Part shown: one piece after another, positions 51,001 through 64,000 of the stretch
Layout of the letters: each line of letters opens with the position of its first letter
How positions within the stretch are numbered: position 1 is the stretch's first letter
Assembly: GCA_964607765.1 (NCBI GenBank)
Contig: CAZSNT010000021.1
Coordinates: forward strand, 10,837-74,836
Source of the DNA: an uncultured Victivallales bacterium
GTDB taxonomy: Bacteria; Verrucomicrobiota; Lentisphaeria; Oligosphaerales; JABHEG01
Direction of reading: 5' to 3'
Length of the DNA stretch: 64,000 bases
The notes under the pieces: generated by a model
Told to the model about the DNA's origin: nothing
The model's database searches: none
Seen by the model: only the letters and a program-made list of their open reading frames with translations
Program-made: the position numbers and the translations under genes

Positions 51001-54000
51001 GGAGTCGATTTTGGCTGTCTCCACTTCGCCGTTGTCGCCCAGGATCACGTCGACCGCGGCGTCCAGAAGGCCGCCGTGGATGGCGTCGTCGCCCGGGCCG
51101 CCGATCAACACGTCACTGCCGCGGTTGTCCACGTTGATGTCGATGGCGTCGTCGCCGCCGTACTGCAGGTGAAGCGACTCGAGCTTGTCGACCGCAGGCA
51201 GACCAGTGCCGGGCACCAGGCTGCGGTGCACGTAGCCGCAGTCCCCGAACACGAAGTCGGCGCCGTCGCCGGCAAAGATCGTGTCGCCCTGGTCAGGATC
51301 GGGATCGGTCGCCTGATCGAAGCCGTCCGAGCCGCCGAGGATGATATCGGCGCCCTTGCCGCCCCGGAGTGTGTCGGAGCCGCCGTGCTCGGGTGCCGTT
51401 GAGTAGATGTCAAACGCAGTGGTCTGTCCGTCCTCACGGATCACCGCACCGTTGTCGCCCAGGAGGATGTCGTCGCGGCCGTCGTCTGCCCCGTCGTTGT
51501 ACCCGCCGATGATCGTGTCGTGGCCTGTGCCGCCGATGATCGTGTCGCTGCCGACATGGCCAGTGACGTCGATTGAGTCGTCGCCACCGTACGCGGTGTC
51601 GCGGGAGTCCATCCGCACCACAACCTGATTATTGTCGCGCGTGACAAGGGCGCCGTCACCGAACAGGATGTCATTGCCCGCGTCGCCATCAATCGTGTCG
51701 CCGCCCACGTCCTTGGCATCCGTGTCGCCGGTGCCGCCCAGGATGATGTCGTCGCCCGGGCCGCCTGTGATGGTGTCGCGGCCGCCGTACTCGGGCGCCG
51801 TGGTCATGAAGTCGTAGGAATCGCTCGAGCCGACGTCGAAGAACATCATGCCGTTGTCGCCAAGAATCGTGTCCGCCGCGCTGTCCGGGCCGCCGGCGAT
51901 CGTGTCGTGGCCGCGGCCGCCGATGATCGTGTCAGCCCAGCCGTTGCCGGTGAGGTCAATCGAATCGTCGCCGCCGTAAGCCGTGTCCCGCGACTCAATC
52001 TCCGTAATCACCCGACTGTTGTCGCGCGTGATGGTCGCACCGTCGCCGAACAGGATGTCCTTGCCGTCGCCGCCGATGATCGTATCGCCGTCAACGCCGT
52101 AACTGTCGTCGCCGCCCGAGCCGCCCAGGATGATGTCATTGCCGGCACTGCCCTGGATGTCGTCAACGCCGCCCAGGGTCGGCTCGATGGACCAGATATC
52201 GAACGACGCAGCCGTGCCGTCGTCCATCACGACCACGCCGTTGTCACCCAACAACACGTTGACAGCCACGTCGGTCGCACCGCCGCGAATCGTGTCGTCG
52301 CCGTTGCCGCCCAGGATGATGTCCGCGCCCAGAGCCCCGGTCAAGTCAATGCGGTCATCGCCGCCATAGGCCGGGTAGGTCGCCTCAATCCGGGTGACCG
52401 TCCTGCTGTTGTCGCGCGTGATGTAGCCGCTGTCACCCAGAATGATGTCCGCGCCCGCGTAGCCGTCGATCACATCCCCGCCGCCGGCCGCGTGCTCGTC
52501 CGTGCCACCGCAGCCACCAAGGATGATGTCGGCACCGGGACCACCCGCGATCGCGTCCGTGCCGCCGTACGTGGGCTCGGTCGAATACACGTCATACGAG
52601 GCAGCCGTGCCGTCGTTGAAAATGATGACGCCGTTGTCACCGAACAGGATGCTGCCGGACAGGTCGTCCGTGCCTGCGTTCAACGTGTCGTTGCCCGTCC
52701 CGCCCAGGAGCGTATCGACTCCTCCGTGCCCACTGACATCCAACTGGTCGTTGTCACCGTAGGCGGGCGCCGTTGTCTCGATCCGCGTGACGATCCGGCT
52801 GGCATCGCGTGTGATATAGCCGTCGTCACCCAAAATGACGTCCCTGCCCTGATCGCCCTGGAGTGTGTCACCCTCTTTGCCGGCGGTACTGCCGCCCGTG
52901 CCGCCCAGGATGAAGTCGTCGCCCGCACCGCCACGGATCAGGTCGAAGCCACCTTCGTTCGGGTCAGTTGAATAGACGTCGTAAGAAGCCGCGGGATCTG
53001 CCGGGTCGTTGTACACCACGACGCCGTTGTCACCGAGCAGGATGTCTGCGCCGCGGCCGCCCTGGATGTCGTCGTCCTGCGTGCCGCCCAGGACCAGGTC
53101 GTCGCCGTCGCTGCTGACAATCGTATCAGGCCCGCCAATGGCGCCGACATCTTCGCCGTGCCCAATGGTCTTGACACGGATCACGGTGTGCGTGGCATCA
53201 CGGGTGACCCAGCCGCCGTCACCCATGATGACATCGCTCTCCACGCCGCCTGTCAGGACGTCGCCGCCGAAGCCGCCGATCAGGATGTTCCAACCGGCCG
53301 CGCCGCCCACGATGGTGTCCCCTGCCCCGGTGGCCGGGTTGGTGGTGTAAACATCGTTGGAAGCGCTGTTGATGTTGGCGACGCCGTTGTCACCCAGGAT
53401 GATGTTCGTCCCCAGCGGTGAGGTGATGCTGTCACTGCCCGGGCCGCCCATGATGACGTTCGCGCCCGCACCGCCGTCGATGGTGTCCGCGCCGCCCACG
53501 GCGCCATTGGGATCGTCCTGGCCGCCCGTCCGGATCTGCGTCACGACACGGCTCGCGTTGCGCGTGATCCAGCCGCCGTCGCCGAGGATCCAGTCGTCAC
53601 CCACGCCGCCGGTGATCTGGTCCTTGCCGGCACCGCCGATCAGGATATTGGAGCCGTCTGTGCCGCCCGTGATCACGTCACGACCTGCCACCGCGGAGTC
53701 CGTGCTGAACACGTCAGTCGCTTCCGCACTGCCGTCGTCTCGGACGACCACCCCGTTATCACCCAGGATGATGTTGTTGCCGCTGGCTGCGGTCAGTGTA
53801 TCGCCGCCGGCGCCACCCAGGATCACGTCGTCACCCGGTCCGCCGTCCACGACGTCCGCGCCGCCGCCGCTGCCGCTGGTCGACACGCGCTGGACCGTAT
53901 AAGCGGCGTCCCGCACGATCACGCCGAGATCGCCTACGATGATATCGTCGTCTGTCCCGCCGAAGATGGTGTCCGTGCCCAAGCCGCCCAACAACACGTC

Positions 54001-57000: not shown

Positions 57001-60000
57001 GTATTCGGTGTTGGTCGTGTAGGAGTTCCCGTCGTTGTCGAGGATAACCATGCCGGACCAGCCGTCCACGGCAACCGGCGTGCCGCCCACGTAGATGGTG
57101 CCGTCGCGGTCGCCCACCACCATGAGGTTGTTGCGTTCGCCGCCGTGCAGCTCGGCTTCCTCGAAAATCCCTTTCAGGTCCTCGACGACGGCGTTCTTCG
57201 CATAGTTGTCGCCCGTGTCCCTCAGCGGGTATATGACCGGCGCCGGGAACTTCGCGTACTCTTCGTTGTCCGGATTGCCGTCGTTGTCGCCGTCGTAGCT
57301 CAGGCGATCCTCCTCATCCTGTTCGTCAGTCCGGATGGACTTGAACATGGTGCCGCCATCGTCGCCCAGGATCGTGCCGGTGACGAACTTGCTGTCGAAC
57401 AGCGACATGTCGGTGTCCTGCTCCTCGAGCAAACGGTCCGTGCCGCCCGCGTCAAAGAACTGATCCCAGCCCTCGCCGCCGCCGACCACATCGTTGCCCA
57501 GGCCGCTGTCCAGAACATCGTTGTAAGGCGAGCCCTTCAGTTCGTCGTTGCCCGTGCCGCCGACCAGCGTGACCGCAATCAGATCCTGCGGCAGGATGCT
57601 GTCATCGTTCGGGTCACGCGTTCCGAGGCCGGCGGCATTCAGCACGTCGTTGCCGGCCTTCGCGTCGACGATGACCGCATCGCCTTCGTCGCGCTGGCTG
57701 TTCTGGATCAGGAATTCGTTGACGCCTTCCCGGTTGATGTTCACATCCTGCATCAGCCACACGCCCGCGCTCGGATGCTCCTTCTCCGGGTTGACTGCCG
57801 TGAAGATGAAGCTGTCATTGCCGGACGCGCCCTCGATGCGCAACACGTCGCCGTCGCCGTCGTCGGAGACTACCAGGTGCGGAATCTCCACCTCCACATC
57901 ACCCGTACCATCGCCATCGACATCGTCCCACACGGTGGTTGTGCCGGTCTGCACAATGCTCTGGCCAAAGTCCACGGTCAGCTTCTGCACGCCCGAGCCA
58001 CTGAGGTCGAACGCAGTGATGTCGTCTGCACCGTCGCGGGCATCAACCGTGATCTCTTCGATACTGCGCCCGGTGATGGAGTCTGTGACCGCGCCGTCCT
58101 CGACCCAGGCAACGCGAACCTGGCTGGCTGCAGGGGAGGTGACGTGCAGCATGTCCGCGTCATCCGTGCCGGTCACAACAAAGACGTCCGTGCCGCTGCC
58201 GCCGTCGACGGTGGCGTCGACCGCATCGCCGAAGGTCCAGCGGATCAGATCGTCGTCATTGCCGCCATAGACGGTATCCGCGCCGCCGTTGCCTGTGATG
58301 TCGTCTGAGCCTGACCCGCCGTTCAGTGTGTCATTGCCGGGGCCGCCCACGAGGATGTCGTTCCCGGAGCCGCCTGACAGATTGCTGGTACTGGTGCCCT
58401 TGTGACGCAGCTGATCGTTCCCGGCGCCGCCCACCATGGTCACTGGAACGTCGACCTCGGTGCCGGCCTCCAGATAGTCGTCGCCGTTACCGCCGTCCAG
58501 CAGGACACTGCCCGTGCTCGGATCGCCGTTGTAGATCAAGTAGTCGTCGCCGTCCTGGCCGTAGAACTCAACCGGCGATTTGACCCGCATTCCGTCCTTC
58601 TCGCGCACGGCCACCAAGTCGTTGCCGGACGCGCCGTAGGCCACGATCTTCTTCACGCCGGTGTACTTCTTGCTGTAGCCCATCGTGCTGACACGCACGG
58701 TCTCGCCTTCCGGATAGGTGGGATCGCCGCCCACGTGCTCGATGGTGAACGACTCGTCCACGTCGTCCTCGGCAATACCGCGGCCGTCTCTGTAGTTCGT
58801 GGTGTGGGCCCTGTCGCCCATGTTCAGGTAGAGCGTACCCGTGTTGGCGTCGAGCTCGGCCGGCCGAACCACCGGCGGCAGCTGGATGTAGCCCAACGTA
58901 AACCTCGCGGTCTTCTTGATGGTAATGAAGAGGATCTTGATCTTTGCCGTGACCTTGAACGCCAGCTTGATGCGCGAGCCTGGCCCGCGCGTGGCCGTCA
59001 GCGTGGCGTTGAACGAGACCCCGGCCAATGTGATGCCGAACACCTTCGCCTTAACGCTCGCACTGAGGCTGACACCGAACTGCCTGTCAGTGAGCCAGAC
59101 ACGGAAATTGAAGCCACCGATCAAGCCGAACGAACGGCTGCCGATCACCATGTCGCCGCCCATGCTGATGTCGAAGTGACCGTTCGAATTCAGCCACCCG
59201 TTGGCCCCCAGCGAGCCGACGAAGAAATCCACGTTGGCACTGAAACCGATGGCCCAGTCGCCGGGCATGAGGTTCTGTGTGTAGCTCCCCCAACGGAACT
59301 GGCCCCCGCCTACCTGGACCTTGAACCCGGCGTTCAGCTTGATCACGCCCAGGACCTTCAGCTCGCCGTGCAAGTCCAAGAGGAAGGAGTTGGCTCCGAT
59401 CGTGGTGCCGCCCACCACCTGGCTGCGGGTGCGCGTGTTGACCTGCAGTGTACCGGAAGCGGAGATGCTGAAGATGTTGAAAATACTGACGTCCAACGAA
59501 ACGGCGACCTTGATGACCACGCCATCGTCGTAGACGCCCGCGAACAGATACGCAGACGCATCGATCGGCCCCAGATTGACTGTGACTTGCCCCTCGATCG
59601 AGAAGGAACTGCCGGATGCCCGGATTTCCAGCGAGCCACTCGCTGAAGCGAAGCCGAGGAAGTTGATCGATCCGGCGATGCGTATTCGGACGCCGTCGCC
59701 CACGGTCACCTGTGTGCCGCTGGCAAGAACCACTTGTCTGGAACGCCCGCAGGTGTTCACCTCAAAACCGGCTTCGCCGCTGAAACGGATTCCCTGATCG
59801 CTCCCGAAGCCCGCGTCCAGCTCCAGCGCAACGCGCGCGACAACGCCCTCTCGGTCAACCATCAGATTGCCCGCGGCGTCCAGGTGGCCGAATGGCCCAA
59901 GCTCAAGCGTGCCCTGGAGCGCAAGATCCAGGCCCTCCGTACTGAACTTGAGCCGGAACCATGCCTCGACCACGAACACGCTGGCAATGGTCATCTTGCC

Positions 60001-63000
60001 GTGCGCGTTGATGATCACATAGGGCCCGGGATCCTCCTCCGTGCCGTCGAGCTTCGGCGCGCCGGCCGCGATGATGAAGCAGGACTGAGTGCCATCGTCC
60101 GGACAGGTCTCAAGCCTGTTGAGCGTCTCGTCGGTGAGGTACTTCCTGAAGCTGTCCGGGACCTTGAACTGCTGTTGCTGGCTGGTCGTGTTGACGATCA
60201 CCCGCGCGCTCAGCTCAACGCTGAAGATGTCTCTGAGCACGGATGCATTGCCAATGCTGACCCCCACCTCGATGTCACAGGCGAAGCCGTCCGAGTTGAT
60301 GACCAGAACGCCGAGCGCGCTGAAGTCGAAAATGCTGAAATCGTCAGGGCCAATCTGCAGCTCGGCGTTGACGAACAGGTCCAGACCATCCGTACGGATC
60401 TCAAGGATGAAGACGCCGCTGAGGCGGAACATCTCGGCGCCGTCTTTGCCCGCGTTGAACACGAGCATGCCGGCGATCTGGATCTGGATGGTCTCCTTCG
60501 GGATGACGTACTCCTCGAAGTCGTCAGGCCCGTAAAGGATGGTGATGGTCTTGTCGCTGGACATGCTGTTGACGACGAAGTTGACATCCGCCGCCAACTC
60601 GATGCCGATCTCACGCAATCCCGGGAAGTCCGCCTGCAGACGCGCGACGCCAACCACGCCGTTCCGGTTGATCTCCAGGTAGCCGAAAGCGAGGACCTCG
60701 CCCAGCGGGCCAAGCTGCATGCGGGCACTGATCTGCAGCTCCAGCTTGTCCATGCTGACTTCGAAGCGGAACGCGCCCTGCAGCTTGAACATCTGCGCAA
60801 TCGTCAGCGTGCCCGCGCCCTGGATGACCACATACGGGCCGGCAGTGCCTAGTGTGCCGTCGATCTGCGGTGGACCGCGCGGGACGTTCACGTAGTACTT
60901 GCCTTCCGAGGCATGCACATCCAGCTGCTGGCCGAGCACACTGTTCGTCTGCACGATGTACTCGTTGCCGTCAGCGTCCGTGAGCTCCCATCTGTCCTCC
61001 TTGTAGATCTTGCGCACGGCCACCGCACCAACCAGCGGCAACCCCTCAGACGCAAAAGCCGCCGCCAGTGCGTCAGGCACGGAGCCGCCGTCCAGTGCCG
61101 TCACCATCGAGCCGTCGCTGTCCTCCACGCTGAAGTGCACATCGCCGGTGCCGAACTCGAGGCTGTCGACAAACTCCTGATCCAAGTACCCCTTCTGCGG
61201 ATCGAGGAAGATGTCCGGGATGCGGAAGTCAAGGTACTTCCCAGACGTGTTGACCCACAGATCGAACTCCGCATCGAATTCGAGGATCTCGGCCGAGCCC
61301 ATGGTCAAGCTCAGGTTGAGCTGCAACGCGAATCCCTCGTCGTTGAGCAGCAACACGCCGAGCGCATCGAATGTGAAAAGCCGGAAGTCCGGCGGACCAA
61401 GGTCCAGGTCGGCTTTCACGAACACTTCCACGCCCGCCACGCTGATCTTCATGTAGAACACGCCGCTCAGACGGAACAGTTCCGGGTCGTCGTCCTCGAT
61501 CGGCGGGATCCTGAACGTGAGCACGCCAGCCGCAGCAATGGCGAACGTGAACGGGTCGAGCACAAACGTCTGTCCCTCGCCGGCGATACTGAGCTGATTG
61601 CCGTCCTTGTCGACGAAGTACTGTTTGTTGTCATCACCGTTGTCGATGATCTTCCACTTCTTGCCCGACTCCACGCCTTGGACCGTGATGCTGTCCGTCA
61701 ACTCAACGCCGTTGTCGATGAATGCCTGCTTCAGTGCTGCGGGAATCGTCTTCTTGAAGCTGTCCGGCGAAAGGTCTGCCGGCAGTCCGGAGCTGATGCC
61801 GTTGTCCTCGGTGACAAACAGCTCGTCGCCTTTGATGCCTTCGAGGAAAATGGTCTCGGTCTTGGTCTCGTGCGTGGCATTGATCTGCAGCAGGTACATG
61901 GCATTCGCATGAATACCGATCTCCCTGAACTTCTCAAGGTTAGTCTCAAGTTTCAGAACCCCCCAGAGCTGAAGGAAGCTCGTCCCGAAGATCGAACCGC
62001 CACCGGTGTCATCACCTGGATTGTCACCGATCCCCAACACGAAACGGCCGGCCGCGCTCGCGATATTGCCCAAGTAGATCAGCTCAAGTGTGCCGTTCAC
62101 GTCAAGAGCAAAGCGGGCCTTCGTGACTGCGCCCGTATCCGGGTCGAGAATGAAATCGACGCTCAACTCGGTCATGCCGCGAATCGCAATGAGTGGGTCA
62201 GGCGTACCGTCACCGTTGTAGTCCGGGGTCAACCCCGCTGCATTCAACTCGAAGAAGCCCGACATCCTGAAGACAATGGATGCGGCCTGTGATATGACGC
62301 GGAAATTGTCGCTGTGCGCGATGTTCCGATTGCCGGCCATGTCTTCCCAACTGTCGACGAGGAACCGGACGGTGACGAGCCCATCCTCCAGTTCGCCGGT
62401 GAAGTAGAACCGGAACACATTGTCACCCAGATCCTCCGCAACGCCCGTGAACGTGACGTTCCCGGCCCCCTCGCCGTTGAATGCAATCTCGTGTCCCGTG
62501 TCCGTGATGCTCGCCGCGTTCAGACCCTTGCCGGTCACGTCGTTGAACAGGACATCGATGTAACCCCTGTCGCTCAGCAACACCCGATCAATTGTGTCGT
62601 GGTGCCCCGGGTCAACCAGCGTGGCGGTCGGAGTGGCGACGGTGAACTGTCCCTGAGCCGCCAGGTTGTAGAAACCGCCCGTGTCCTCCCAGGCACTCAC
62701 AGCGAAAAGCACAGCCACGTCGCCCGGCAGGAAGGCGCCGGTGAAGAAATAGCGGAACGTGTAGTTGAGGTCGTGCACCTCCAGGCCATGCGCCCGGCCA
62801 CTGGCGACCCGTGTGATCATGTACTCGCGATCGTCGGCAGTATCGGGCGTGCCGCGCGAGTCCGTGACCCGCCACTCGGCCCCGGCTGTCACCACCGTCA
62901 CCGTCACGCCGTCGTCCGACAGCGACCGACTTGCGGACTTGAACGTGGCACGCAGTGCGTCCGGCACAGCGCCGCCGTCCAAAGCCGCACTGAGACCGGC

Positions 63001-64000
63001 GTCGTCCACGCTGAACAGGAACTCACCCGGGACCTTCACGACCTGGTCCGGGCCGTTCAGGATCTCCACATCGGCAGCGCCGCCGCCGTCGAGCACAAAC
63101 TCGGCGCCCTCGTCGGTTATGCTGCTCTCAACGAGATCGTTGCCGGACGTGGGTGTAAACGTCACATCGATGTAGCCCTGACCGTTCATCTCGGACGGGC
63201 CCTTGACGCTCGACGCAAGGTCGCCAGCCAATGTGGCCGTCGGGCCCTGGAGTAGGAAAGTCTCGGTCTCGCCGGCGTTCGCGTTGCCAAGGCTGTCCTC
63301 GAAGATCCCGGACTCGAAGGTTACCTGCCACTCGCCCGGCGTGAAATCGAGCGCCGCAGGAATCGCGTACCGGTACATGCCGTCAGGCTGCTTCTCTGGC
63401 GGGCCGCGGATCTCCCAGGACGTGCCGTCCCCCCTGGTCACGGTCATCACGAGCGTGCCAGCCGCGATGTCGAGGACGGAGGACTCGAGAAGTTCCCCGT
63501 CGGACGGAGGTCTGATGTTGACGTCGAAGTAATGACGCTCGTTCAGCGTGGCCACGTCGAAGTTGCTGCCGTCTGACGGGTCGACCAAATCCGCTGTCGG
63601 CCCCGTAACCGTGAAACGCTGGGTGGACGCAGGATTCGCGTAGCCCGTGTCGTCCAGCCACGAGCCGGCCGCAAAGTCAACCGTCACCTCGCCCGTGGTG
63701 AACTCGAAGTCCGACGGCAGCGCGAAACGGTACTCCGAGCCGTCCTGAGTGCCTGGGCCATGCACGTCGAGCGTCCTGCCGTCAGCCAGTGTCAGGGTGA
63801 AGACAAGATCGCTGTCACTCACGCTGTCTTCGTCCAACTCGCCGCCGGGCGCCGGGAGGTACTGCACACCGATCGTCTTGTTCGCGTTCAGGGTCCCCAC
63901 GTAGACCGTACCCCCATGCTCCGGGAACGTCAGCACGGCCTGCGCATCCTGAACGGTGAACGAAACGGTTGCTTCACGGTTGCCGTTCAGCGCGTCATCG
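1..64000 (-). CDS. Internal segment of one giant ORF (21,333 complete codons, both ends outside the window); mosaic extracellular repeat / adhesin-like fibre protein
   Basis: Hand translation of the reverse complement in the phase with codons at 3k+1..3k+3 is stop-free over every stretch I translated: contiguously nt 63999-53341, 51480-46981 and 40620-37681, plus >80 single 60-nt lines spread from nt 36700 down to nt 1. It always yields domain-like sequence (e.g. nt 60-1 IPIKVNDVPALTEHDVLTVF). Track logic: every listed minus-strand ORF begins at a coordinate = 0 or 2 mod 3, none in phase 1. Because the track lists start-to-stop ORFs, a single in-frame stop would have produced a very long listed ORF. 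All long plus-strand ORFs (starts 19, 1915, 6445, 13648, 20488, 43501 ..., all = 1 mod 3) are the codon-aligned antisense shadow expected of a GC3-rich gene that almost never uses TTA/CTA/TCA. Confidence 0.9.
25..420 (-). other. Cadherin-like / 'tandem-95'-type Ig module ending in ..VNDVP
   Basis: nt 420->25 reads LSVPASLETNEGVELAVDSVVLSDGDADARPMTVTLSLAQQASNAVLVVVPQGSVQASGNGTATLELVGVLGDLNATLATLLYRPAADAAPLSYFVDTLTIEATDNGGPGKGGAQSATETIPIKVNDVPAL. The layout G.a.L.L.G.L..LN..L..L.Y.P......D.L.I...D.G.....I.I.V.DVP is typical of ~100-aa modules in very large RTX-type adhesins (recognised by eye). Confidence 0.55.
421..710 (-). other. Cadherin-like domain
   Basis: nt 710->421: VITGDMLTAADADNGAAELTYTLDALPASGTLFRDGAALSQGDTFTQADLDAARISYAHDGSETVSDSFDFTVRDANGGSVTGSFTILVDPVNDTPQ. 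This carries the classic LTYTL / FTQADLD / Y.HDGSE / DSF.F.V.D / VNDTP signature of bacterial cadherin-like domains. Confidence 0.7.
711..1500 (-). other. Beta-helix-like 'SAGAGGIN' cassette (one copy of a dispersed ~330-370-aa unit)
   Basis: nt 1080->1021 SAGAGGINVLEADDLTVGTV. The flanking sequence is G/A/T/V/D/S-rich with short alternating strands, matching the cassettes at 10.7, 18.0, 20.1, 20.8 and 21.6 kb. Confidence 0.5.
1500..8800 (-). repeat. 13-14 tandem ~535-nt (~180-aa) coding repeats, two subtypes that mostly alternate; beta-strand-repeat 'stalk'
   Basis: One full unit was translated (nt 7680->7081): TITNAGLLDIAPGADMTLGGAFLQNGAGAVQTAGDIATAGDAITFGAAVTLTDAHAVALTTGLGLGTITFGSTLDGTTPYTEHLGLAAGTGNIDFDGVVGGSVPLGGLGIANAADVTADSAITADTFAQDAGTGDTQFDGPVTLLASTGVGLALTTNTVTLNSTIDTLTAGNGGTVTITNAGLLDIAPGADM... 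The antisense marker catgtc.gcgcccgg.gcgatgtc.agca.gccggcgtt.gtgatcgt recurs near 1760, 2270, 2810, 3350, 3881, 4420, 4960, 5492, 6040, 6570, 7106, 7631, 8160 and 8690. Confidence 0.85.
8800..11060 (-). other. Beta-helix-like region including one 'GGINL' cassette
   Basis: nt 10740->10681 VTAVAGQGGINLLEADDVTV; nt 10500->10441 DGVGVSATGGGNVLLQAQGA. Boundaries are approximate. Confidence 0.45.
11080..13620 (-). repeat. Array of ~8 'TLTV..TTA..V..AIN' modules (~80-105 aa each)
   Basis: nt 13500->13261 DPVGENNEITVVPNADGETYNGLEIVLVDSVAKGSETAVYDAGANRLTVSIEFGSTGSTAAEVVAAINAEAGNVFTASLT; nt 11820->11761 NAVVAAVNAEGTFTATLDTT; nt 11520->11461 NVGETDANAIVAAINADGTF; nt 11220->11101 VATYDAGTRTVTVAIHGGITRAATVIAAVNDMQDGPVAAT. 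Confidence 0.7.
13640..14930 (-). other. Beta-helix-like segment
   Basis: nt 14520->14461 DRIDVSAGTDGSGNVTVNTG. Composition and strand periodicity resemble the other cassettes; only sparsely translated. Confidence 0.35.
14940..17100 (-). repeat. Array of ~7 AIN modules
   Basis: nt 16980->16801 YLDDASLTGDTTAAAYDAGSSTLSITINSGVTTAATVIGEVNAGANSATIPFTAANAAGS; nt 15000->14941 AGQTTSTTVVAAINAVAGLP. Confidence 0.65.
17100..18100 (-). other. 'GGIS/INL' beta-helix cassette
   Basis: nt 18000->17941 TTTGGGGISLEDATNVGVDT; nt 18120->18061 GADTVDVYANGLRLSAGAGV opens the cassette; nt 17160->17101 LETQADSITVNGAVTGSALV. Confidence 0.5.
18105..19480 (-). repeat. Eight tandem 56-aa (168-nt) Tyr/Asp/Gly-rich 'YYYDADGDG ... 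GEDVWRDE ... YD.GIDT ... GYQI' repeats, family unassigned
   Basis: nt 19200->18781: AETGIQTGLYYRDADGDGAHDDTEDIWSDGAGSRAGLYDDGTDALVLGGGDGYQIAGAEQGRNDGLYYHDANADAAYTTGEDVWRDEAGGTAGQYDHGIDTRVYDGGNGYQIGPEQGSQGGLYYYDADANQVHTAGEDLW. The GLYY-to-GLYY spacing is exactly 168 nt. Confidence 0.8.
19480..21690 (-). repeat. Two to three consecutive 'SAGAGGINL' beta-helix cassettes
   Basis: nt 20160->20101 NAVETDVATLTASAGAGGIN; nt 20880->20821 SPVDIEARVLSASAGAGGIN; nt 21600->21541 GTIAAQTTSGGGGISLVDAT; nt 19980->19921 RDGSNGSIVFRTVDGSITVN; nt 20700->20641 RDGSNGSIVLRTGVAGGGIT. Confidence 0.6.
21690..22040 (-). repeat. Second, short (about 2-unit) array of the 56-aa YYYD repeat
   Basis: nt 21960->21841 GGSDGYQLSGGETGTQTGVYYYDPNADGYTEGDDIWRDEA; entered from ..IIATNGTISDAAGTGEEDLW (nt 22080->22021). 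Confidence 0.7.
22040..23400 (-). other. Divergent beta-helix cassette
   Basis: nt 22200->22081 GKNIRLEAADNVQLGLVDARTAADRAVGTLSEQADWGLVA parallels nt 19620->19501 AADDVVLGTLDARTAADRAAGTTASQASWGSVAVIAASGT. Confidence 0.45.
23420..24200 (-). repeat. Two AIN-type modules
   Basis: nt 24000->23941 KILTIKVDLDNTRAVTVRDQ. The surrounding sequence read by eye follows the module pattern (..NRTLTVTAQL...IVNAI..). Confidence 0.45.
24200..25900 (-). other. Beta-helix-like segment of a different flavour
   Basis: nt 24960->24901 GEHLVLNAGTGDIVIQGDIG; short G.I.I.G.I strands throughout; only sparsely translated. Confidence 0.35.
26250..26480 (-). repeat. RTX (hemolysin-type Ca-binding GGxGxD) nonapeptide block
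   Basis: nt 26400->26341 NDTLNGGAGADRLYGGAGDD, continuing ..TLQGAAGNDVLSGGTGSDTF by eye. Confidence 0.75.
26760..27860 (-). other. Leucine-rich-repeat segment interrupted by a LamG jelly-roll
   Basis: N-side LRRs, nt 27840->27601: GEAIRVSDMTTLIDLQLDNLGIVDLTGLQFARNAQTLNLNGNRVADFALLQP...GLNQLVNLSVDHN. C-side LRRs, nt 26940->26761: ..ITHLDDLKEPISLTRLSADHNRITDISAIGELMELTFLSLDGS. Confidence 0.55.
27120..27615 (-). other. LamG / concanavalin-like (Laminin_G_3-type) domain
   Basis: nt 27600->27541 VFDGNDDVVSVTVNVPEDKF; nt 27360->27301 ADGQWHHVAYVFGADALGVG; nt 27180->27121 PHFRGVLDDVRIWEDDLTAA. These are the three hallmark LamG_3 motifs, in canonical order. Confidence 0.75.
28000..28140 (-). repeat. 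Short RTX-like Ca-binding turn cluster
   Basis: nt 28140->28021 PDRDLDEIHGGDGDDTILGSGDHDQLYGESGEDTFVAEPK. Confidence 0.6.
28200..31130 (-). repeat. ELWxxDGT-type repeat (beta-propeller-like) block 2, >=15 blades, with a non-blade insert near 29.7-30.1 kb
   Basis: nt 28620->28561 DENLFLMIDGDELWKSDGTA; nt 30420->30361 LYFTVQDGSDLQLWTSTGPG; nt 31080->31021 EALYFTVDDGGTQLWSSDGE. Confidence 0.7.
31130..35330 (-). repeat. Array of 13 AIN modules (~105 aa, ~310-nt period)
   Basis: nt 33900->33781 TYAIGDANIVVDVRSNGTSTTQDVADAIDALDAFIAAGGQ; nt 35340->35041 ..LWRLRPGYASVTIDPDGANNSMRIDATASGDLYAGIPVMFVDDGTDGAGNSLSGDSAVARYLGSTLFIYIDNDQTTVNTIDTALDAVSEFDLVPLEGGTG. The '..G.TT...V..AI(N/D)' core recurs near 35100, 34790, 34480, 34180, 33850, 33530, 33210, 32900, 32570, 32260, 31950, 31600 and 31290. 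Confidence 0.7.
35340..36700 (-). repeat. ELWxxDGT-type repeat block 1 (about 10 blades)
   Basis: nt 36600->36541 GWQLWKSSGTAPGTVMVTGV; nt 36480->36421 NGTTGTVELWKSDGTAVTTA; nt 35940->35881 TADDSSSGTELWQTNGTQAQ; nt 35400->35341 VAGGTDMLFFVADDNDHGAE followed by LWRL. Confidence 0.75.
36960..38330 (-). repeat. FG-GAP (integrin-alpha-like) repeats with one AIN module inserted (37.80-38.09 kb)
   Basis: nt 38340->38221 FAPDFDSDLQAVIAGDVNGDSLDDIALVNRHFEGVANTDG; nt 37800->37681 QHAVLNVTDTDLGAGAFALGDLNDDGYDDFAVSRLREDAG. Inserted module, nt 38100->37801: VNVPASVVFDFGGANNALRVEAKATTNAFDAYTVEFINDNGLADGSPVSTVYSVGAKTLTVRVKNGVTTAEGARAAMADTNGFRDLFDVSL. Confidence 0.7.
38330..39950 (-). repeat. Four tandem proprotein-convertase-type P domains with no protease domain in view
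   Basis: P1: INDVNVTLQLSHTYDYDLDIYLISPQGTRIRL...GTWTLEIRDRLGGDKGWLHGWKLDV (39930->39560). P2: VTDVDLFLDIDHYRLSDVKVELRSP...GTWTLRVTDL...VDDWQLLI (39500->39140). P3: ITDVDVTLDITHPNVEDLTVWLVNPDGSRRVELF...GGWYLEVSDGQGNFQGTINDWSLDI (39095->38745). P4: ITDVDVRLQITHPDVSDLQAWLINPDGDEVLLF...GTWRLKITDSAGTHVGALAEWSLLF (38705->38345). All were translated contiguously. Confidence 0.8.
40075..40590 (-). other. PA14 domain
   Basis: nt 40590->40081: GLRAWYYNDFYTDGWFWFPAEIRRLGATGTLGNSTLAGTRIDSQVYGRWATGTPWSGAVDADQFSVRWKGYVQVRHTGNYTFQTVSDDGARLWIDVDDNGVFDEDILVDAWHDQGFTAHNSRPVTLTEGEKYMIQMEYFENSSHSNVDLRWTGPG. This matches the canonical PA14 motif string (FS.RW.G.....G.Y.F....DDG.RL.ID ... Y.I..EY.E......L.W). Confidence 0.85.
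40700..43640 (-). repeat. FG-GAP repeat region (~8 Ca-binding loops; integrin-alpha-like propeller) carrying an AIN module (43.19-43.48 kb) and a jelly-roll insert
   Basis: nt 43620->43561 DWDWKPVAIPVGDVNGDGYA; nt 43080->43021 ..FFAEPGDYNGD; nt 42000->41941 IAGLGDIDGDGEDEFAASSA; nt 41340->41281 AQGIGDFDGDGADDAVVYGE. AIN module, nt 43320->43201: VAYDDGSRTLTVTIDDGQTTAQTVVDAINGDADIPFVASL. Confidence 0.75.
42235..42690 (-). other. MAM-like / galactose-binding-like jelly-roll inserted between FG-GAP repeats
   Basis: nt 42720->42241: DLDDFTVAGDLWHRTNRRAADVGHSASWSLYFGQSTGLKAGTYDTGARVTGTATSDSVDLTGIVSASLKFNYFLRTEKLPAQFDQAEVFVSTDNFTTSTLLASNDPAAGVLTLSEEGSGWHAATVDLSAFAGQTIKIRFEFDSVDNQINNLEGWYVDDVE. The pattern W...Y.G...Y......S..IDL.....L.F........D...V.VS.D.......W....VDLS.(F/Y)AGQ.I.IRF.F.S......EGWY.DDV is shared by MAM-like domains of secreted metalloproteases. 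Confidence 0.6.
43650..49860 (-). other. Mixed region: ~9 AIN-type modules alternating with short RTX/EF-like Ca-binding blocks and PPC-like domains
   Basis: AIN-type: nt 48840->48601 ..SADAHFSLVLSGNPAVDVTVAKSATDDNVELDDLVADVNTALVAAGIGDWVVAGRNQLESGAAGNRITLT; nt 48420->48241 ..HFSLRVGGGDAIALTISVAATADNTTVDDLVQDLADVLDAAGLSDRVEAGRNGSRLTLSI. RTX: nt 49140->48961 ..GGEDNDTLRGTGGRDRIDGGKGSDWLYGLGGDDMIWGDGG..GQGNDDLIGGQG; nt 45600->45481 RKDVILGGTGHDVLSGGAGEDWIFGGAGNDVITGGYDEQA. Confidence 0.6.
45790..46340 (-). other. Two PPC-like (bacterial pre-peptidase C-terminal type) domains
   Basis: nt 46380->46201 TSFTGLTMDSPDDTDWYSFQFATAPSAGASLSLVSTSEIDGLLLAIFKADGTSPTDNDMD; nt 46140->45781 ..DAFEIDDIEDLSRIVGLTLHSADDVDWFVFDLAAAGTSATKLNLLKLSGNLAMTLYDADGQIL...GQVYVKVESTDGNPATYEL. 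The hallmarks are D.DW(Y/F).F ... L.LYD..G ... YY/YV.V. Confidence 0.65.
49860..51400 (-). repeat. Classical RTX nonapeptide (GGxGxDxL/I/F) region
   Basis: nt 50040->49861 [60 protein letters not shown]; further blocks at nt 50940->50761 (GGSNGGNDDLYGGLGNDIMFGGPADDLIVGNTGNDLLFGEAGMDVMWGG) and nt 50580->50401. Confidence 0.85.
51400..54000 (-). repeat. ~14 RTX-derived ~65-aa units (two alternating subtypes, ~130-aa super-period) built on 'D(T)I.GG.G.D.I.GG...D.ILGDNG'
   Basis: nt 52080->51721: IIGGDGKDILFGDGATITRDNSRVITEIESRDTAYGGDDSIDLTGNGWADTIIGGRGHDTIAGGPDSAADTILGDNGMMFFDVGSSDSYDFMTTAPEYGGRDTITGGPGDDIILGGTGDT. nt 53940->53341 shows IVGDLGVIV / ILGDNGVVV / ILGDGGWIT / ILGDNGVAN at ~190-nt spacing. 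Confidence 0.75.
54000..55250 (-). other. Beta-roll-like 'LGSGGDEF / GGGNDT' segment
   Basis: nt 54660->54481 RLTGLDMSGNDPTKGMTYTNAETLNIRLGSGGDEFRIKGTPVTNLYTRGGNDAISVYSD; nt 54240->54121 GTGDDNIEIRSIRDTLPWIEVTQVNAGGGNDTVLVTEDEP; nt 55260->55141 GGGNDTINLQENVGETTIYTGGGSDTVNVASSVDSLDRIN. Confidence 0.5.
55690..56040 (-). other. Trp/aromatic-rich island (12 Trp in ~115 aa), function unknown
   Basis: nt 56040->55681: PELVWEDRSITIPWAHFEFRMSFWESIWGYFHGTNQSYIDAAVDRYISWISSGLKLGNPEFRVVDIDYDWAHAYRRWSWWGWRSYVRVWIQNLSIDYQVGHWEPRFETVTPEPVIVDPPP. Confidence 0.8.
58200..58520 (-). repeat. RTX nonapeptide block
   Basis: nt 58560->58201: GQDGDDYLIYNGDPSTGSVLLDGGNGDDYLEAGTEVDVPVTMVGGAGNDQLRHKGTSTSNLSGGSGNDILVGGPGNDTLNGGSGSDDITGNGGADTVYGGNDDDLIRW. 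Confidence 0.8.
58870..62290 (-). repeat. Three to four modules (~270-345 aa) of an unassigned, beta-rich, Lys/Phe/Ile/Leu-enriched type; locally lower GC
   Basis: nt 61482->61306 ELFRLSGVFYMKISVAGVEVFVKADLDLGPPDFRLFTFDALGVLLLNDEGFALQLNLSL aligns with nt 60435->60253 EMFRLSGVFILEIRTDGLDLFVNAELQIGPDDFSIFDFSALGVLVINSDGFACDIEVGVSI. Related half-units: SIVFRMSGFFELNAAGL (62280), TLTIAQMFKLQGAFRFEVSMDKLELQISARMQLGPLGEVLAFGYLEINRNG (60810), KMTIASVFVVEAWFRLKFSTEGLDLALQGTLELGPFGHL (59990). Fully translated, no stop. Confidence 0.7.
62290..64000 (-). repeat. Tandem Ig-like / beta-sandwich modules (N-terminal-most sequence in view; continue upstream of nt 64000)
   Basis: nt 63620->63230: RFTVTGPTADLVDPSDGSNFDVATLNERHYFDVNIRPPSDGELLESSVLDIAAGTLVMTVTRGDGTSWEIRGPPEKQPDGMYRYAIPAALDFTPGEWQVTFESGIFEDSLGNANAGETETFLLQGPTATL. 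The same ending recurs as FRYFFTGAFLPGDVAVLFAVSAWEDTGGFYNLAAQGQFTVATPTATLVDP (62755->62605) and FRFYFTGELEDGLVTVRFLVDSWEDMAGNRNIAHSDNFRV (62355->62235). Confidence 0.6.

What the first reader, a model, noticed from the sequence alone, without database searches (positions are those of the whole stretch)
58870..62290. 3.4 kb of unassigned ~270-345-aa modules with a distinct composition
This block departs from the Gly/Asp/Thr/Ala-rich style of the rest of the protein. It is enriched in Lys, Phe, Ile, Leu and Glu, so GC is locally lower although GC3 codon preference is kept. It is built from a recurring element '(L/M)FRLSGVF........(L/V).(L/V)F(V).A.L..GP.DF..F.F.ALGVL..N..GFA' (61482->61306 versus 60435->60253, plus half-units at 62280, 60810 and 59990). 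It also holds most of the few cysteines I saw, including a CPDDGTQSC loop at about nt 60105->60079 and FACDIEV at about 60282->60262. I could not match it by eye to any named family. The strongly amphipathic strand pattern suggests a large beta-sheet, beta-taco or solenoid, possibly a lipid- or membrane-facing element. It is the best candidate in the window for a genuinely new fold or function.
Basis: seen in the sequence. Interest (0 to 1): 0.7.

Follow-up and report, generated by a model that had tools for sequence, protein, structure and literature searches.

The report
Giant amphipathic beta-ribbon module, unassigned
Inside a bacterial surface protein of more than 21,000 residues lies a 1,136-residue stretch predicted to form one long single-layer beta-sheet ribbon that is greasy on one face; it belongs to a widespread, unnamed family, and the closest solved look-alike is the lipid-wrapping belt of human ApoB100.

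Summary
Window 58870-62277 (minus strand, aa 575-1710 of a stop-free 21,333-codon ORF) stands out in composition: K x3.6, F x2.5, GC 0.60 against 0.66, GC3 unchanged. It has the strongest period-2 amphipathicity in the protein (z 3.7). It consists of six tandem 105-145-aa units (internal E-values to 5e-27), a 175-aa cap and two ~89-aa insert domains.

No Pfam, NCBIfam or PDB sequence match exists for it or for 74 homologues. An exhaustive profile search still finds 695 cluster representatives in giant "calcium-binding" or hypothetical proteins of many phyla. RTX repeats usually follow the module and a conserved 440-aa domain precedes it.

AlphaFold2 gives confident models (pLDDT 84.7; 90.4 and pTM 0.80 for aa 1313-1715). 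They show an up-and-down meander of about 12-residue strands, with one face 87% L/V/A/F/I/G. Foldseek's best matches are the ApoB100 beta-belt (TM 0.39), then large outer-membrane barrels (TM 0.29 or less).

A closed barrel, AsmA/TamB membership and functional cysteines are not supported. My best reading is an open-ended hydrophobic-cleft ribbon that needs a lipid or protein partner. Similar predicted sheets appear in two preprints on giant proteins, and function is untested.

The parts
58870..62277 (-). Whole amphipathic beta-ribbon module, aa 575-1710 (IVFRMSGFF ... FTLGYIQLPPV)
   Evidence: Translation; composition; AF2 model pLDDT 84.7; profile hits in 695 representatives
61849..62277 (-). 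Unit U1 (aa 575-717), the most divergent unit, with a Gly/Asp-rich loop
   Evidence: Unit alignment and HMM
61582..61848 (-). Insert domain D1 (aa 718-806), small alpha/beta domain at a unit boundary
   Evidence: DSSP of model
61192..61584 (-). Unit U2 (aa 806-936), type A, contains LFRLSGVF
60892..61158 (-). Insert domain D2 (aa 948-1036)
60508..60876 (-). Unit U3 (aa 1042-1164), type B, contains MFKLQGAF
60139..60519 (-). Unit U4 (aa 1161-1287), type A, contains MFRLSGVF and FACDIEV
60064..60138 (-). 25-aa insertion with the CPDDGTQSC loop (aa 1288-1312); absent or without Cys in orthologues
59704..60063 (-). Unit U5 (aa 1313-1432), type B
   Evidence: AF2 model pLDDT 90.4
59395..59718 (-). 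Unit U6 (aa 1428-1535)
58870..59394 (-). C-terminal cap of the ribbon (aa 1536-1710), 12 strands, ending in the conserved F-T-x-G-Y-x-x-x-P-x-P
62764..63036 (-). Third copy of insert domain D (D0, aa 322-412), lying in the Ig-like array upstream of the module
58240..58554 (-). First block of RTX calcium-binding nonapeptide repeats, ~105 aa after the module; part of the conserved cassette
   Evidence: Pfam HemolysinCabind; RTX lies downstream and almost never upstream in homologues

Best explanation
Structure (shown by sequence statistics and prediction). The region is one non-globular, open-ended repeat module. It has six tandem ~105-145-aa units plus a cap. Each unit contributes six ~12-residue antiparallel strands joined by 2-4-residue turns, followed by a short hairpin or helix. 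Together they form a single continuous up-and-down beta-sheet ribbon, by my estimate about 4 nm wide and about 30 nm long. One face is almost purely apolar and the other is polar and charged. A stripe of conserved Gly/Ala runs along the mid-line of the apolar face, flanked by conserved large apolar residues. I read that stripe as a longitudinal crease, that is, a hydrophobic cleft. Small ~89-aa domains are inserted at unit boundaries.

Function (inferred). An exposed apolar surface of this size cannot sit in water, so the ribbon must work as a hydrophobic contact surface. I think it most likely lies on or holds lipid: the producer's envelope, a partner cell's membrane, or bound lipid. That would be the way the ApoB100 belt works and, in cross-section, the way the Lpt and AsmA grooves work. 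The Ig-like arrays, RTX repeats and about 19,600 further residues would then project from it.

The module is the core of a conserved cassette (domain X, Ig-like repeats, ribbon, RTX) found in giant secreted calcium-binding proteins.
For: Tandem repeats. AF2 models: pLDDT 84.7 and pTM 0.56 for aa 561-1741; pLDDT 90.4 and pTM 0.80 for aa 1313-1715. Both are almost entirely 12-residue strands in a meander.

There are 48 long strands. The apolar face is L22, V16, A14, F13, I12, G10 %, with mean hydropathy +2.5 against -1.1 on the other face. The alternation is kept in homologues in 22 of 22 strands (+2.65 against -1.34). On the apolar face, 94 columns are conserved large and 26 conserved small, and the small ones lie mid-strand.

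Foldseek against PDB: the best hits are the ApoB100 beta-belt. The full model gives E 7.5e-13. The 403-aa model gives TMq 0.39 and rmsd 12 A over all residues. Closed barrels fit worse (TMq 0.18-0.29, rmsd 18-30 A), and TM rises as the barrel gets larger. The ApoB belt has 120 strands, mean length 11 residues, ~4 nm width and interstrand inserts, which is the same design.

Unit number varies between homologues (1-7, and 21 in one), which fits an extensible open structure. The cassette is conserved: X upstream, RTX downstream. A comparable 'extended beta-sheet with continuous hydrophobic cleft' bearing protruding domains is predicted for the LEPRxLL giant protein Cag_663. Four homologues of this module carry the LEPR-XLL leader.
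Against: Nothing here tests lipid binding. I could not inspect the model coordinates, so the cross-section (flat belt or V-shaped cleft) and the degree of exposure of the apolar face are inferred only from Foldseek statistics and the Gly/Ala stripe.

All TM-scores are below 0.4, so the ApoB similarity is architectural and not a fold match. There is no sequence relationship (identity 8-9%; no Vitellogenin or ApoB Pfam hit).

The apolar face is more conserved at identity level than the polar face (0.62 against 0.42). That fits specific protein-protein packing at least as well as a fluid lipid interface.

TamB, LptA and VPS13 are not among the 50 best Foldseek hits of either model.
Confidence: 0.4

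Rival explanations
1. Same ribbon structure, but the apolar face is covered by protein and not by lipid. Two ribbons would pack face to face, as a homodimer or against the X-domain sheet, or the cleft would close on itself. The result would be a rigid two-layer stalk or spacer of adjustable length within the giant filament.
For: Identity-level conservation and a fixed large/small pattern on the apolar face suggest knobs-into-holes packing. Unit number varies, as in a ruler. The Cag_663 preprint models dimerisation through the hydrophobic cleft. The family also occurs in an Actinomycetota-type genome, so no outer membrane is required.
Against: The AF2 monomer models match single-layer sheets best, not sandwiches. 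Tyr and Trp make up only 1% of the apolar face, which I judge unusual for beta-sandwich cores. No dimer prediction could be run here.
Confidence: 0.3
2. The module is a very large transmembrane beta-barrel that anchors the giant protein in the outer membrane, in the manner of an autotransporter, an inverse autotransporter or SprA.
For: The strands are 12 residues long and alternate apolar and polar. Foldseek lists SprA, LptD, usher and SlpA barrels. In P0142/P0164 the cassette lies near the C-terminus of a Sec-exported protein.
Against: TM to barrels is 0.29 or less and improves as barrel curvature falls. The number of units varies between homologues (1-7, 21), whereas a barrel family keeps a fixed strand number (established knowledge). 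There is no aromatic girdle: Y+W is 1% of the apolar face. Turns are tight on both rims. One family member sits in a monoderm-type genome. The module is internal, with about 19,600 residues after it.
Confidence: 0.05
3. The module is a divergent true member of the AsmA/TamB (RBG) or Lpt beta-taco superfamily and acts as a bridge-type lipid conduit.
For: It has the same up-and-down meander topology, a hydrophobic concave face and a mid-line crease signature (AsmA review).
Against: No AsmA, TamB, DUF490, OstA or LptC Pfam hit at E<=1 in the window or at E<=0.01 in 74 homologues. hhalign against E. coli TamB gives probability 0.2%. These proteins are not in the Foldseek top 50. Homologue N-termini carry LEPR-XLL or a Sec signal, and no AsmA/TamB family was detected in them. 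The units have 6 strands plus a hairpin, not 5 strands plus a crossing loop. The proteins appear to be extracellular, not periplasmic.
Confidence: 0.05
4. The module is a membrane-inserting toxin element. Its ~24 amphipathic hairpins would insert into a target membrane to form a very wide single-chain beta-pore, delivered by the RTX-bearing giant protein.
For: Amphipathic hairpins are the inserting elements of beta-pore-forming toxins (established knowledge). RTX repeats are adjacent. The Cag_663/665 proteins are reported to be transferred into a partner cell.
Against: No pore-forming-toxin family hit. AF2 confidently predicts a pre-formed continuous sheet, not a soluble prepore fold. Variable unit number argues against a defined pore.
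Confidence: 0.04

Closest known systems
ApoB100 beta-belt (human LDL; PDB 9ea7, 9e9r, 9bde, 9coo; Berndsen & Cassidy, Nature 2024, PMC11839476)
   Same: A single continuous antiparallel meander sheet of ~11-12-residue strands, ~4 nm wide and tens of nm long, with one apolar face, interrupted by interstrand inserts. It is the best Foldseek match for both models.
   Different: No sequence relationship (8-9% identity; no Vitellogenin/LLTP N-terminal domain). TM is only 0.16-0.39. This is a bacterial extracellular protein, built from a regular ~105-145-aa tandem repeat with a mid-line Gly/Ala stripe. Lipid binding is untested.
[quoted passage not shown]
   Same: A giant (>20,000 aa) calcium-binding protein with the LEPRxLL leader class. 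It has a predicted extended beta-sheet with a continuous hydrophobic cleft, small domains protruding at intervals, no match to solved structures, and relatives in Desulfobacterota.
   Different: Homology to this module was not tested because no sequence was at hand. That sheet spans ~13,000 aa, against 1,136 aa here. Its inserts are described as HK97-like, whereas here they are the ~89-aa D domain. It is known only from prediction.
'Antiparallel beta-helix' tubules of giant Omnitrophota proteins (West-Roberts et al., bioRxiv 10.1101/2023.11.21.568195)
   Same: A ~1,500-aa unannotated region of a giant protein, predicted as one long antiparallel meander with regularly spaced external helices or paired short strands. 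Here each unit ends in a short hairpin or helix.
   Different: Those are described as closed hollow tubules. The Foldseek statistics here favour an open ribbon. Homology was not tested, and none of the 30 named homologues is from Omnitrophota.
AsmA-like / RBG and Lpt beta-taco lipid-bridge proteins (TamB, YhdP, LptA; review PMC10345924)
   Same: An up-and-down meander sheet folded around a hydrophobic groove, built from repeats, elongated. This is a plausible model for how the module works.
   Different: No sequence or profile similarity. Not among the best structural hits. Different repeat anatomy, different N-termini, extracellular context.
LEPR-XLL (NF012209, 'LEPR-8K') giant RTX-type surface proteins
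   Same: Four homologues carrying this module start with the LEPR-XLL motif above the curated cut-off. The window protein has RTX, FG-GAP, PA14 and P-domain content typical of such giants.
   Different: The window lacks the N-terminus, so membership of this protein is untested. The leader says nothing about the ribbon module itself.

Membership tests
AsmA/TamB (RBG) lipid-bridge superfamily | Detectable sequence or profile similarity to AsmA, AsmA_2, TamB/DUF490 or Chorein-N models | tested here: not met
   No such Pfam hit at E<=1 in the window region or at E<=0.01 in 74 homologues. hhalign of profile A3 against E. coli TamB: probability 0.2%.
AsmA/TamB (RBG) lipid-bridge superfamily | N-terminal inner-membrane anchor followed by Chorein-N; periplasm-spanning protein | tested here: not met
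   The N-terminus is absent from the window. Homologues with N-termini carry LEPR-XLL or a cleavable-looking Sec signal, and the NCBIfam scans of them returned no AsmA/TamB family.
AsmA/TamB (RBG) lipid-bridge superfamily | Structural match to the beta-taco/groove (TamB 5VTG, TamAB, VPS13, Lpt) | tested here: inconclusive
   None of these is in the 50 best Foldseek PDB hits of either model. The mid-line Gly/Ala stripe is compatible with a groove.
ApoB / large lipid transfer protein family | N-terminal vitellogenin/LLT domain and sequence homology | tested here: not met
   No Vitellogenin_N, DUF1943 or ApoB Pfam hit. 8-9% identity in Foldseek alignments.
ApoB / large lipid transfer protein family | Continuous single-layer amphipathic beta-belt of ~11-residue strands with interstrand inserts | tested here: met
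   AF2 secondary structure, face composition, best Foldseek hits, belt parameters from PMC11839476. This is an architectural match only; TM is below 0.4.
ApoB / large lipid transfer protein family | Stable association of the apolar face with lipid | not testable with these tools
   Needs biochemistry or a structure.
Outer-membrane beta-barrel (OMP, autotransporter, SprA-like) | Closed barrel with a fixed strand number within the family | tested here: not met
   Unit count is 1-7, and 21 in P0117. TMq to barrels is 0.29 or less with rmsd 18-30 A.
Outer-membrane beta-barrel (OMP, autotransporter, SprA-like) | Aromatic girdles (Tyr/Trp) on the lipid-facing surface | tested here: not met
   Y 1.0% and W 0% of apolar-face residues over 48 strands.
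Outer-membrane beta-barrel (OMP, autotransporter, SprA-like) | Restricted to diderm bacteria | tested here: not met
   The full cassette is present on a 941-kb contig with 69.6% GC. Its cluster representative is named Propionicimonas sp. (Actinomycetota). Caveat: the contig comes from a MAG.
RTX / type 1-secreted giant adhesin | Blocks of GGxGxD nonapeptide repeats | tested here: met
   HemolysinCabind E 1e-34 and 3e-63 downstream of the module. This holds for the protein, not for the module.
RTX / type 1-secreted giant adhesin | C-terminal T1SS secretion signal and adjacent ABC/MFP/TolC genes | not testable with these tools
   The C-terminus and the neighbouring genes lie outside the window. 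No T1SS genes lie next to homologues in L002, L004 or L005.
LEPR-XLL giant proteins (NF012209) | N-terminal ~24-aa LEPR-XLL motif | not testable with these tools
   The N-terminus lies beyond the window. The feature is met in homologues P0028, P0134, P0045 and P0117.
Rhs/YD-repeat shell | YD-repeat sequence motif (Pfam RHS_repeat) and a spiral cocoon | tested here: not met
   No RHS_repeat hit. No Tc, Rhs or teneurin structure in the Foldseek top 50.

The most novel reading that the evidence does not exclude
Bacteria of many phyla carry an independently evolved counterpart of the ApoB100 beta-belt. It would be a single-layer amphipathic beta-ribbon of adjustable length, set in giant extracellular calcium-binding proteins, that lies on or wraps lipid (own envelope, vesicles or a partner cell's membrane) or offers a ~30-nm hydrophobic groove between cells in consortia. 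This would be a new way of coupling a cell-surface filament to membranes, and a new protein family and fold class that is absent from Pfam and the PDB.
Probability: 0.25. Interest if true: 0.85.

Novelty: new variant of a known kind. Interest (0 to 1): 0.6.

Why it matters
Giant bacterial proteins are mostly unannotated sequence. This module is a clean, confidently predicted, conserved piece of that sequence: at least 695 cluster representatives across Thermodesulfobacteriota, Planctomycetota, Verrucomicrobiota, Methylomirabilota, Gammaproteobacteria, Bacteroidota and an Actinomycetota MAG. It has no family name and no solved relative.

A 30-nm single-layer sheet with a fully apolar face is physically demanding. 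Finding what covers that face (lipid, a second chain or a partner cell) would show how these filaments are anchored or what they carry. The solved structure that matches it best here is eukaryotic ApoB100, so a bacterial version would be a tractable model for beta-belt and lipid interactions. The 403-aa fragment aa 1313-1715 (pTM 0.80) is an obvious construct for expression and structure work. The family also deserves a Pfam or NCBIfam entry.

Tried and rejected
- Pfam and NCBIfam scans of the region at E<=1 gave only sub-threshold noise: DUF4192 at 18.5 bits, DUF5372.
- PDB sequence and profile searches gave nothing: ApaG at E 0.13, and zero hits for profile A3.
- The word-indexed homologue search returned only five fragments, even with alignments A2 and A3 as queries. 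The third search was in effect wasted. The exhaustive representative search was what revealed the family.
- Scans of genome contigs and metagenome contigs with the window protein found no relative and not the source contig. Alignments A2 and A4 were too divergent for the pattern-based locus search. The source organism therefore remains unknown; the nearest orthologues (47-58% identity) are from Thermodesulfobacteriota and Desulfobacteraceae MAGs.
- Foldseek against BFVD gave nothing useful (TM 0.34 or less).
- The profile of the D insert domain against PDB gave no significant hit.
- Cysteine/disulfide idea rejected: the Cys residues are not conserved.
- Closed outer-membrane barrel rejected.
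- AsmA/TamB membership rejected at sequence level.
- The plus-strand ORFs overlapping the region (414, 372 and 459 aa) were dismissed as shadow ORFs of a high-GC gene. The minus frame is stop-free for 64 kb and is the frame with homologues.
- I looked for model coordinates in the sandbox to measure curvature and exposure. None are provided.

Full report
WHAT IS THERE. The 64-kb window is a single stop-free reading frame on the minus strand, 21,333 codons long and open at both ends. The long plus-strand ORFs over the region are shadows of this high-GC gene. The finding corresponds to aa ~571-1710 of this translation.

The composition shift is real. Relative to the other 20,000 residues, Lys is x3.6, Phe x2.5, Met x1.7, Glu x1.5, Ile x1.5 and Leu x1.3, while Thr, Ala and Asp are depleted. 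GC falls from 0.658 to 0.603, while GC3 stays at 0.82 against 0.83. The change is therefore in the amino acids and not in codon usage, which does not suggest foreign DNA. The region ranks first in the protein for K+F+I+L+E. It also has the strongest period-2 (beta-type) hydrophobic moment (z = 3.7; 12% of 11-residue windows above 2.0, against 2.7% elsewhere).

ANATOMY. Self-comparison gives aa 810-931 ~ 1162-1284 (E 5e-27), aa 1042-1157 ~ 1313-1428 (E 8e-22) and cross-type matches (E 5e-11). Alignment and an HMM define six tandem units: U1 aa 575-717, U2 806-936, U3 1042-1164, U4 1161-1287, U5 1313-1432 and U6 1428-1535. Types A (U2, U4) and B (U3, U5) alternate, and a 175-aa cap ends in FTLGYIQLPPV. 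The unit HMM finds no further copy anywhere in the 21,333 residues.

Each unit ends in a conserved (V/I)-N-T-(S/T) motif. At two unit boundaries sits an ~89-aa insert domain ('D', consensus GD.LF...L..G..P..L...F...G..L...TV....G..W...D....Y). A third copy lies upstream among the Ig-like repeats.

The four cysteines of the region are 4 of only 9 in the whole translation. They are replaced by Ala or Thr, or fall in a deleted loop, in orthologues at 36-53% identity. The CPDDGTQSC loop is therefore a local peculiarity and not a functional feature.

NO NAMED FAMILY, BUT A LARGE ONE. Pfam and NCBIfam give nothing above noise for the region. The PDB by sequence gives nothing. The word-indexed protein search finds only five fragments from Thermodesulfobacteriota or 'Deltaproteobacteria' MAGs at 52-58% identity, plus one at 31%.

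The exhaustive profile search of 1.84 billion cluster representatives changes the picture. It finds 695 proteins at E<=1e-3, 442 at E<=1e-10 and 169 at E<=1e-30, many of them fragments of 2,000-7,800 aa. None of 74 mostly-module homologues has a Pfam family over the module, and their profile hits no PDB sequence.

Source names for 30 of them are 'hypothetical', 'calcium-binding' or 'beta strand repeat-containing protein'. They come from Thermodesulfobacteriota/Desulfobacteraceae (including an Olavius symbiont), Planctomycetota, Verrucomicrobiota/Opitutales/Akkermansiaceae, Methylomirabilota, Gammaproteobacteria, Bacteroidota and a Propionicimonas MAG. P0014 (7,829 aa) is colinear with window aa 1239-3084 at 47% identity, so it is an orthologous giant gene.

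CONSERVED CONTEXT. In large homologues, RTX GGxGxD repeats lie within 800 aa downstream of the module in most cases. An upstream repeat was counted in only one, P0024. The window shows the same arrangement.

A strongly conserved 440-aa beta-rich domain ('X', E to 1e-191) lies upstream in at least 20 homologues. In some it abuts the module directly (P0061, P0142, P0016). In others an Ig-like array separates them. By colinearity with P0002, X must lie just beyond the window's upper end.

Homologues with intact N-termini start with the LEPR-XLL motif (NF012209, above cut-off) or with a Sec-type signal peptide (P0164). The full X-module-RTX cassette also occurs on a 941-kb, 69.6%-GC contig. From my own knowledge of actinobacterial genomes, its neighbourhood (pepA, E2, lipB, lipA, DUF4191) is typically actinobacterial. 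Its cluster representative is named Propionicimonas sp..

PREDICTED STRUCTURE. With a 74-row alignment, AlphaFold2 models aa 561-1741 at mean pLDDT 84.7 and pTM 0.56. With 41 rows it models aa 1313-1715 at pLDDT 90.4 and pTM 0.80. Both are almost entirely beta. Strands of 11-14 residues are joined by 2-4-residue turns in a strict up-and-down meander. Each unit has six long strands, followed by a short hairpin or helix. The D inserts are small alpha/beta domains.

Over 48 long strands, one face is L22, V16, A14, F13, I12, G10 % (87% for these six; Y+W 1%; charged 3%). The other face is S, N, E, G, D, R, K, T, Q-rich. Mean hydropathy is +2.5 against -1.1. Homologues keep this alternation in 22 of 22 strands (+2.65 against -1.34). 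The apolar face is also the more conserved one (top-residue frequency 0.62 against 0.42). It has 94 conserved-large columns and 26 conserved-small (Gly/Ala) columns. The small ones sit mid-strand in roughly every second strand, forming a stripe along the ribbon's mid-line.

STRUCTURAL NEIGHBOURS. Foldseek against the PDB ranks the ApoB100 beta-belt first for the full model: 9ea7 at E 7.5e-13, then 9e9r, 9bde and 9bdt. SprA, LptD and the usher barrels follow, all at TM 0.21 or less.

For the 403-aa model the best TM is again ApoB100 (TMq 0.39, rmsd 12 A over all residues; 9coo_A gives 0.34). Barrels fit worse, and fit better the larger they are: 18-19 strands give 0.18-0.23, 24-26 strands give about 0.25-0.27, and the SlpA/SDBC barrel (30 strands, from my own knowledge) gives 0.27-0.29, with rmsd 18-30 A. 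I take this trend, together with the low rmsd to an extended belt, to mean that the model is an open, elongated, single-layer ribbon. It is then not a closed barrel, a tight tube or a folded-back sandwich. This is an inference from alignment statistics, because I could not obtain coordinates.

TamB, Lpt, VPS13 and Rhs/Tc structures are not among the 50 best hits. hhalign against E. coli TamB gives probability 0.2%. BFVD gives nothing.

HOW IT MOST LIKELY WORKS.

Shown: the module is a conserved, extensible repeat that encodes strictly amphipathic 12-residue hairpins, and it is predicted with high confidence to form one continuous sheet.

Inferred from strand count and spacing: the sheet is about 4 nm by 30 nm.

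Inferred from the Gly/Ala stripe: the sheet is creased along its mid-line into a hydrophobic cleft. This matches the 'continuous hydrophobic cleft' predicted for the LEPRxLL giant Cag_663.

Inferred from physical chemistry: an exposed apolar surface of this size must be covered.

I favour lipid or membrane as the partner (0.4). The reasons are the ApoB analogy in design (120 strands, mean 11 residues, 4 nm wide, interstrand inserts), the near-absence of Tyr, Trp and polar residues on the apolar face, and the single-layer character of the models. The close rival (0.3) is protein-protein burial, either a homodimer or packing with domain X. It is supported by the identity-level conservation of the large/small pattern and by the dimer model in the Cag_663 preprint.

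A transmembrane barrel is disfavoured on several counts. Unit number varies (1-7, and 21 in P0117). There is no aromatic girdle. Turns are tight on both rims. The barrel TM-scores are poor. One member sits in a monoderm-type genome. True AsmA/TamB membership fails every sequence-level test, although a groove of that kind remains a reasonable picture of how the module could work.

COMPARISON WITH WHAT IS KNOWN, AND NOVELTY. The family has no Pfam or NCBIfam model and no solved relative. The nearest solved analogue, ApoB100, is eukaryotic and unrelated in sequence. Two preprints describe predicted large hydrophobic or meander beta-sheets in giant bacterial proteins: Omnitrophota 'antiparallel beta-helix' tubules and the Chlorochromatium Cag_663/665 N-terminal sheets. 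The general phenomenon has therefore been seen in silico, though not characterised. Homology of those sheets to this family is untested.

I rate the module a new variant of a known kind. It is a well-defined, widespread repeat family that realises the beta-belt or beta-groove architecture in bacterial extracellular giants.

I put interest at 0.6. A structural biologist would find a bacterial ApoB-like belt surprising, and the 403-aa fragment makes the question directly testable. Against that, all functional statements are inference, and the main structural point rests on AF2 plus search statistics.

Noticed in passing
window 1-64000, minus strand: The entire window is one stop-free ORF of 21,333 codons, open at both ends, with only 9 cysteines. 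The gene is therefore longer than 64 kb, among the largest bacterial genes.
   Followed up: partly
window 62764-63036, 61582-61848, 60892-61158 (minus): An ~89-aa insert domain 'D' is present in three copies (invariant G, L, W and Y). It occurs in about 30 of 152 homologues, always in or next to the ribbon. It has no Pfam or PDB match and is predicted as a small alpha/beta domain.
   Followed up: partly
window 4000-18999 (minus; aa 15001-20000): Five thousand consecutive residues have no Pfam family at E<=1e-3. This is another large unannotated block of the same protein.
   Followed up: no
window ~39571-43038 (minus; aa ~6988-8143): A cluster of recognisable domains: FG-GAP repeats, an InhA-like MAM domain, PA14/GLEYA and four proprotein-convertase P-domains. 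Laminin-G and LRR-like hits lie further on (aa ~12184-12403).
   Followed up: no
window 62290-63999 (minus; aa 1-570): An array of ~100-120-aa Ig-like repeats lies upstream of the module, with only a weak choice-of-anchor-U hit (E 0.023). It is colinear with P0002 residues 440-998.
   Followed up: partly
beyond window end 64000; seen in P0002 residues 1-440, L004 4042-9981 and others: A strongly conserved 440-aa beta-rich domain 'X' precedes the module in at least 20 homologues and sometimes abuts it directly. X and the module may form one sheet that is interrupted by the Ig-like array. X has no precomputed Pfam domain.
   Followed up: partly
L001 22303-23875; L002 16191-17791: In two unrelated loci the giant gene is followed directly by a ~250-aa gene with collagen-like repeats and a second small gene. 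This may be a conserved partner.
   Followed up: no
L001 93-22230: The homologous giant gene around P0005 is split into overlapping plus-strand ORFs in different frames. This indicates frameshifts, either real or assembly errors. Many database 'proteins' of this family are therefore fragments with artificial Met starts.
   Followed up: partly
L005 10001-20554 (P0164): A complete 3,517-aa family member has a classical Sec signal peptide, and the X-module cassette lies near its C-terminus (about 229 aa follow). It has no RTX repeats and no Pfam or NCBIfam hit at all. It sits next to a two-component system.
   Followed up: partly
window 43501-51402 and 13648-20328 (plus strand): There are very long antisense ORFs (2,633 and 2,226 aa) opposite the giant gene. 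I treated them as shadow ORFs of a 65%-GC repetitive gene and did not examine them further.
   Followed up: no
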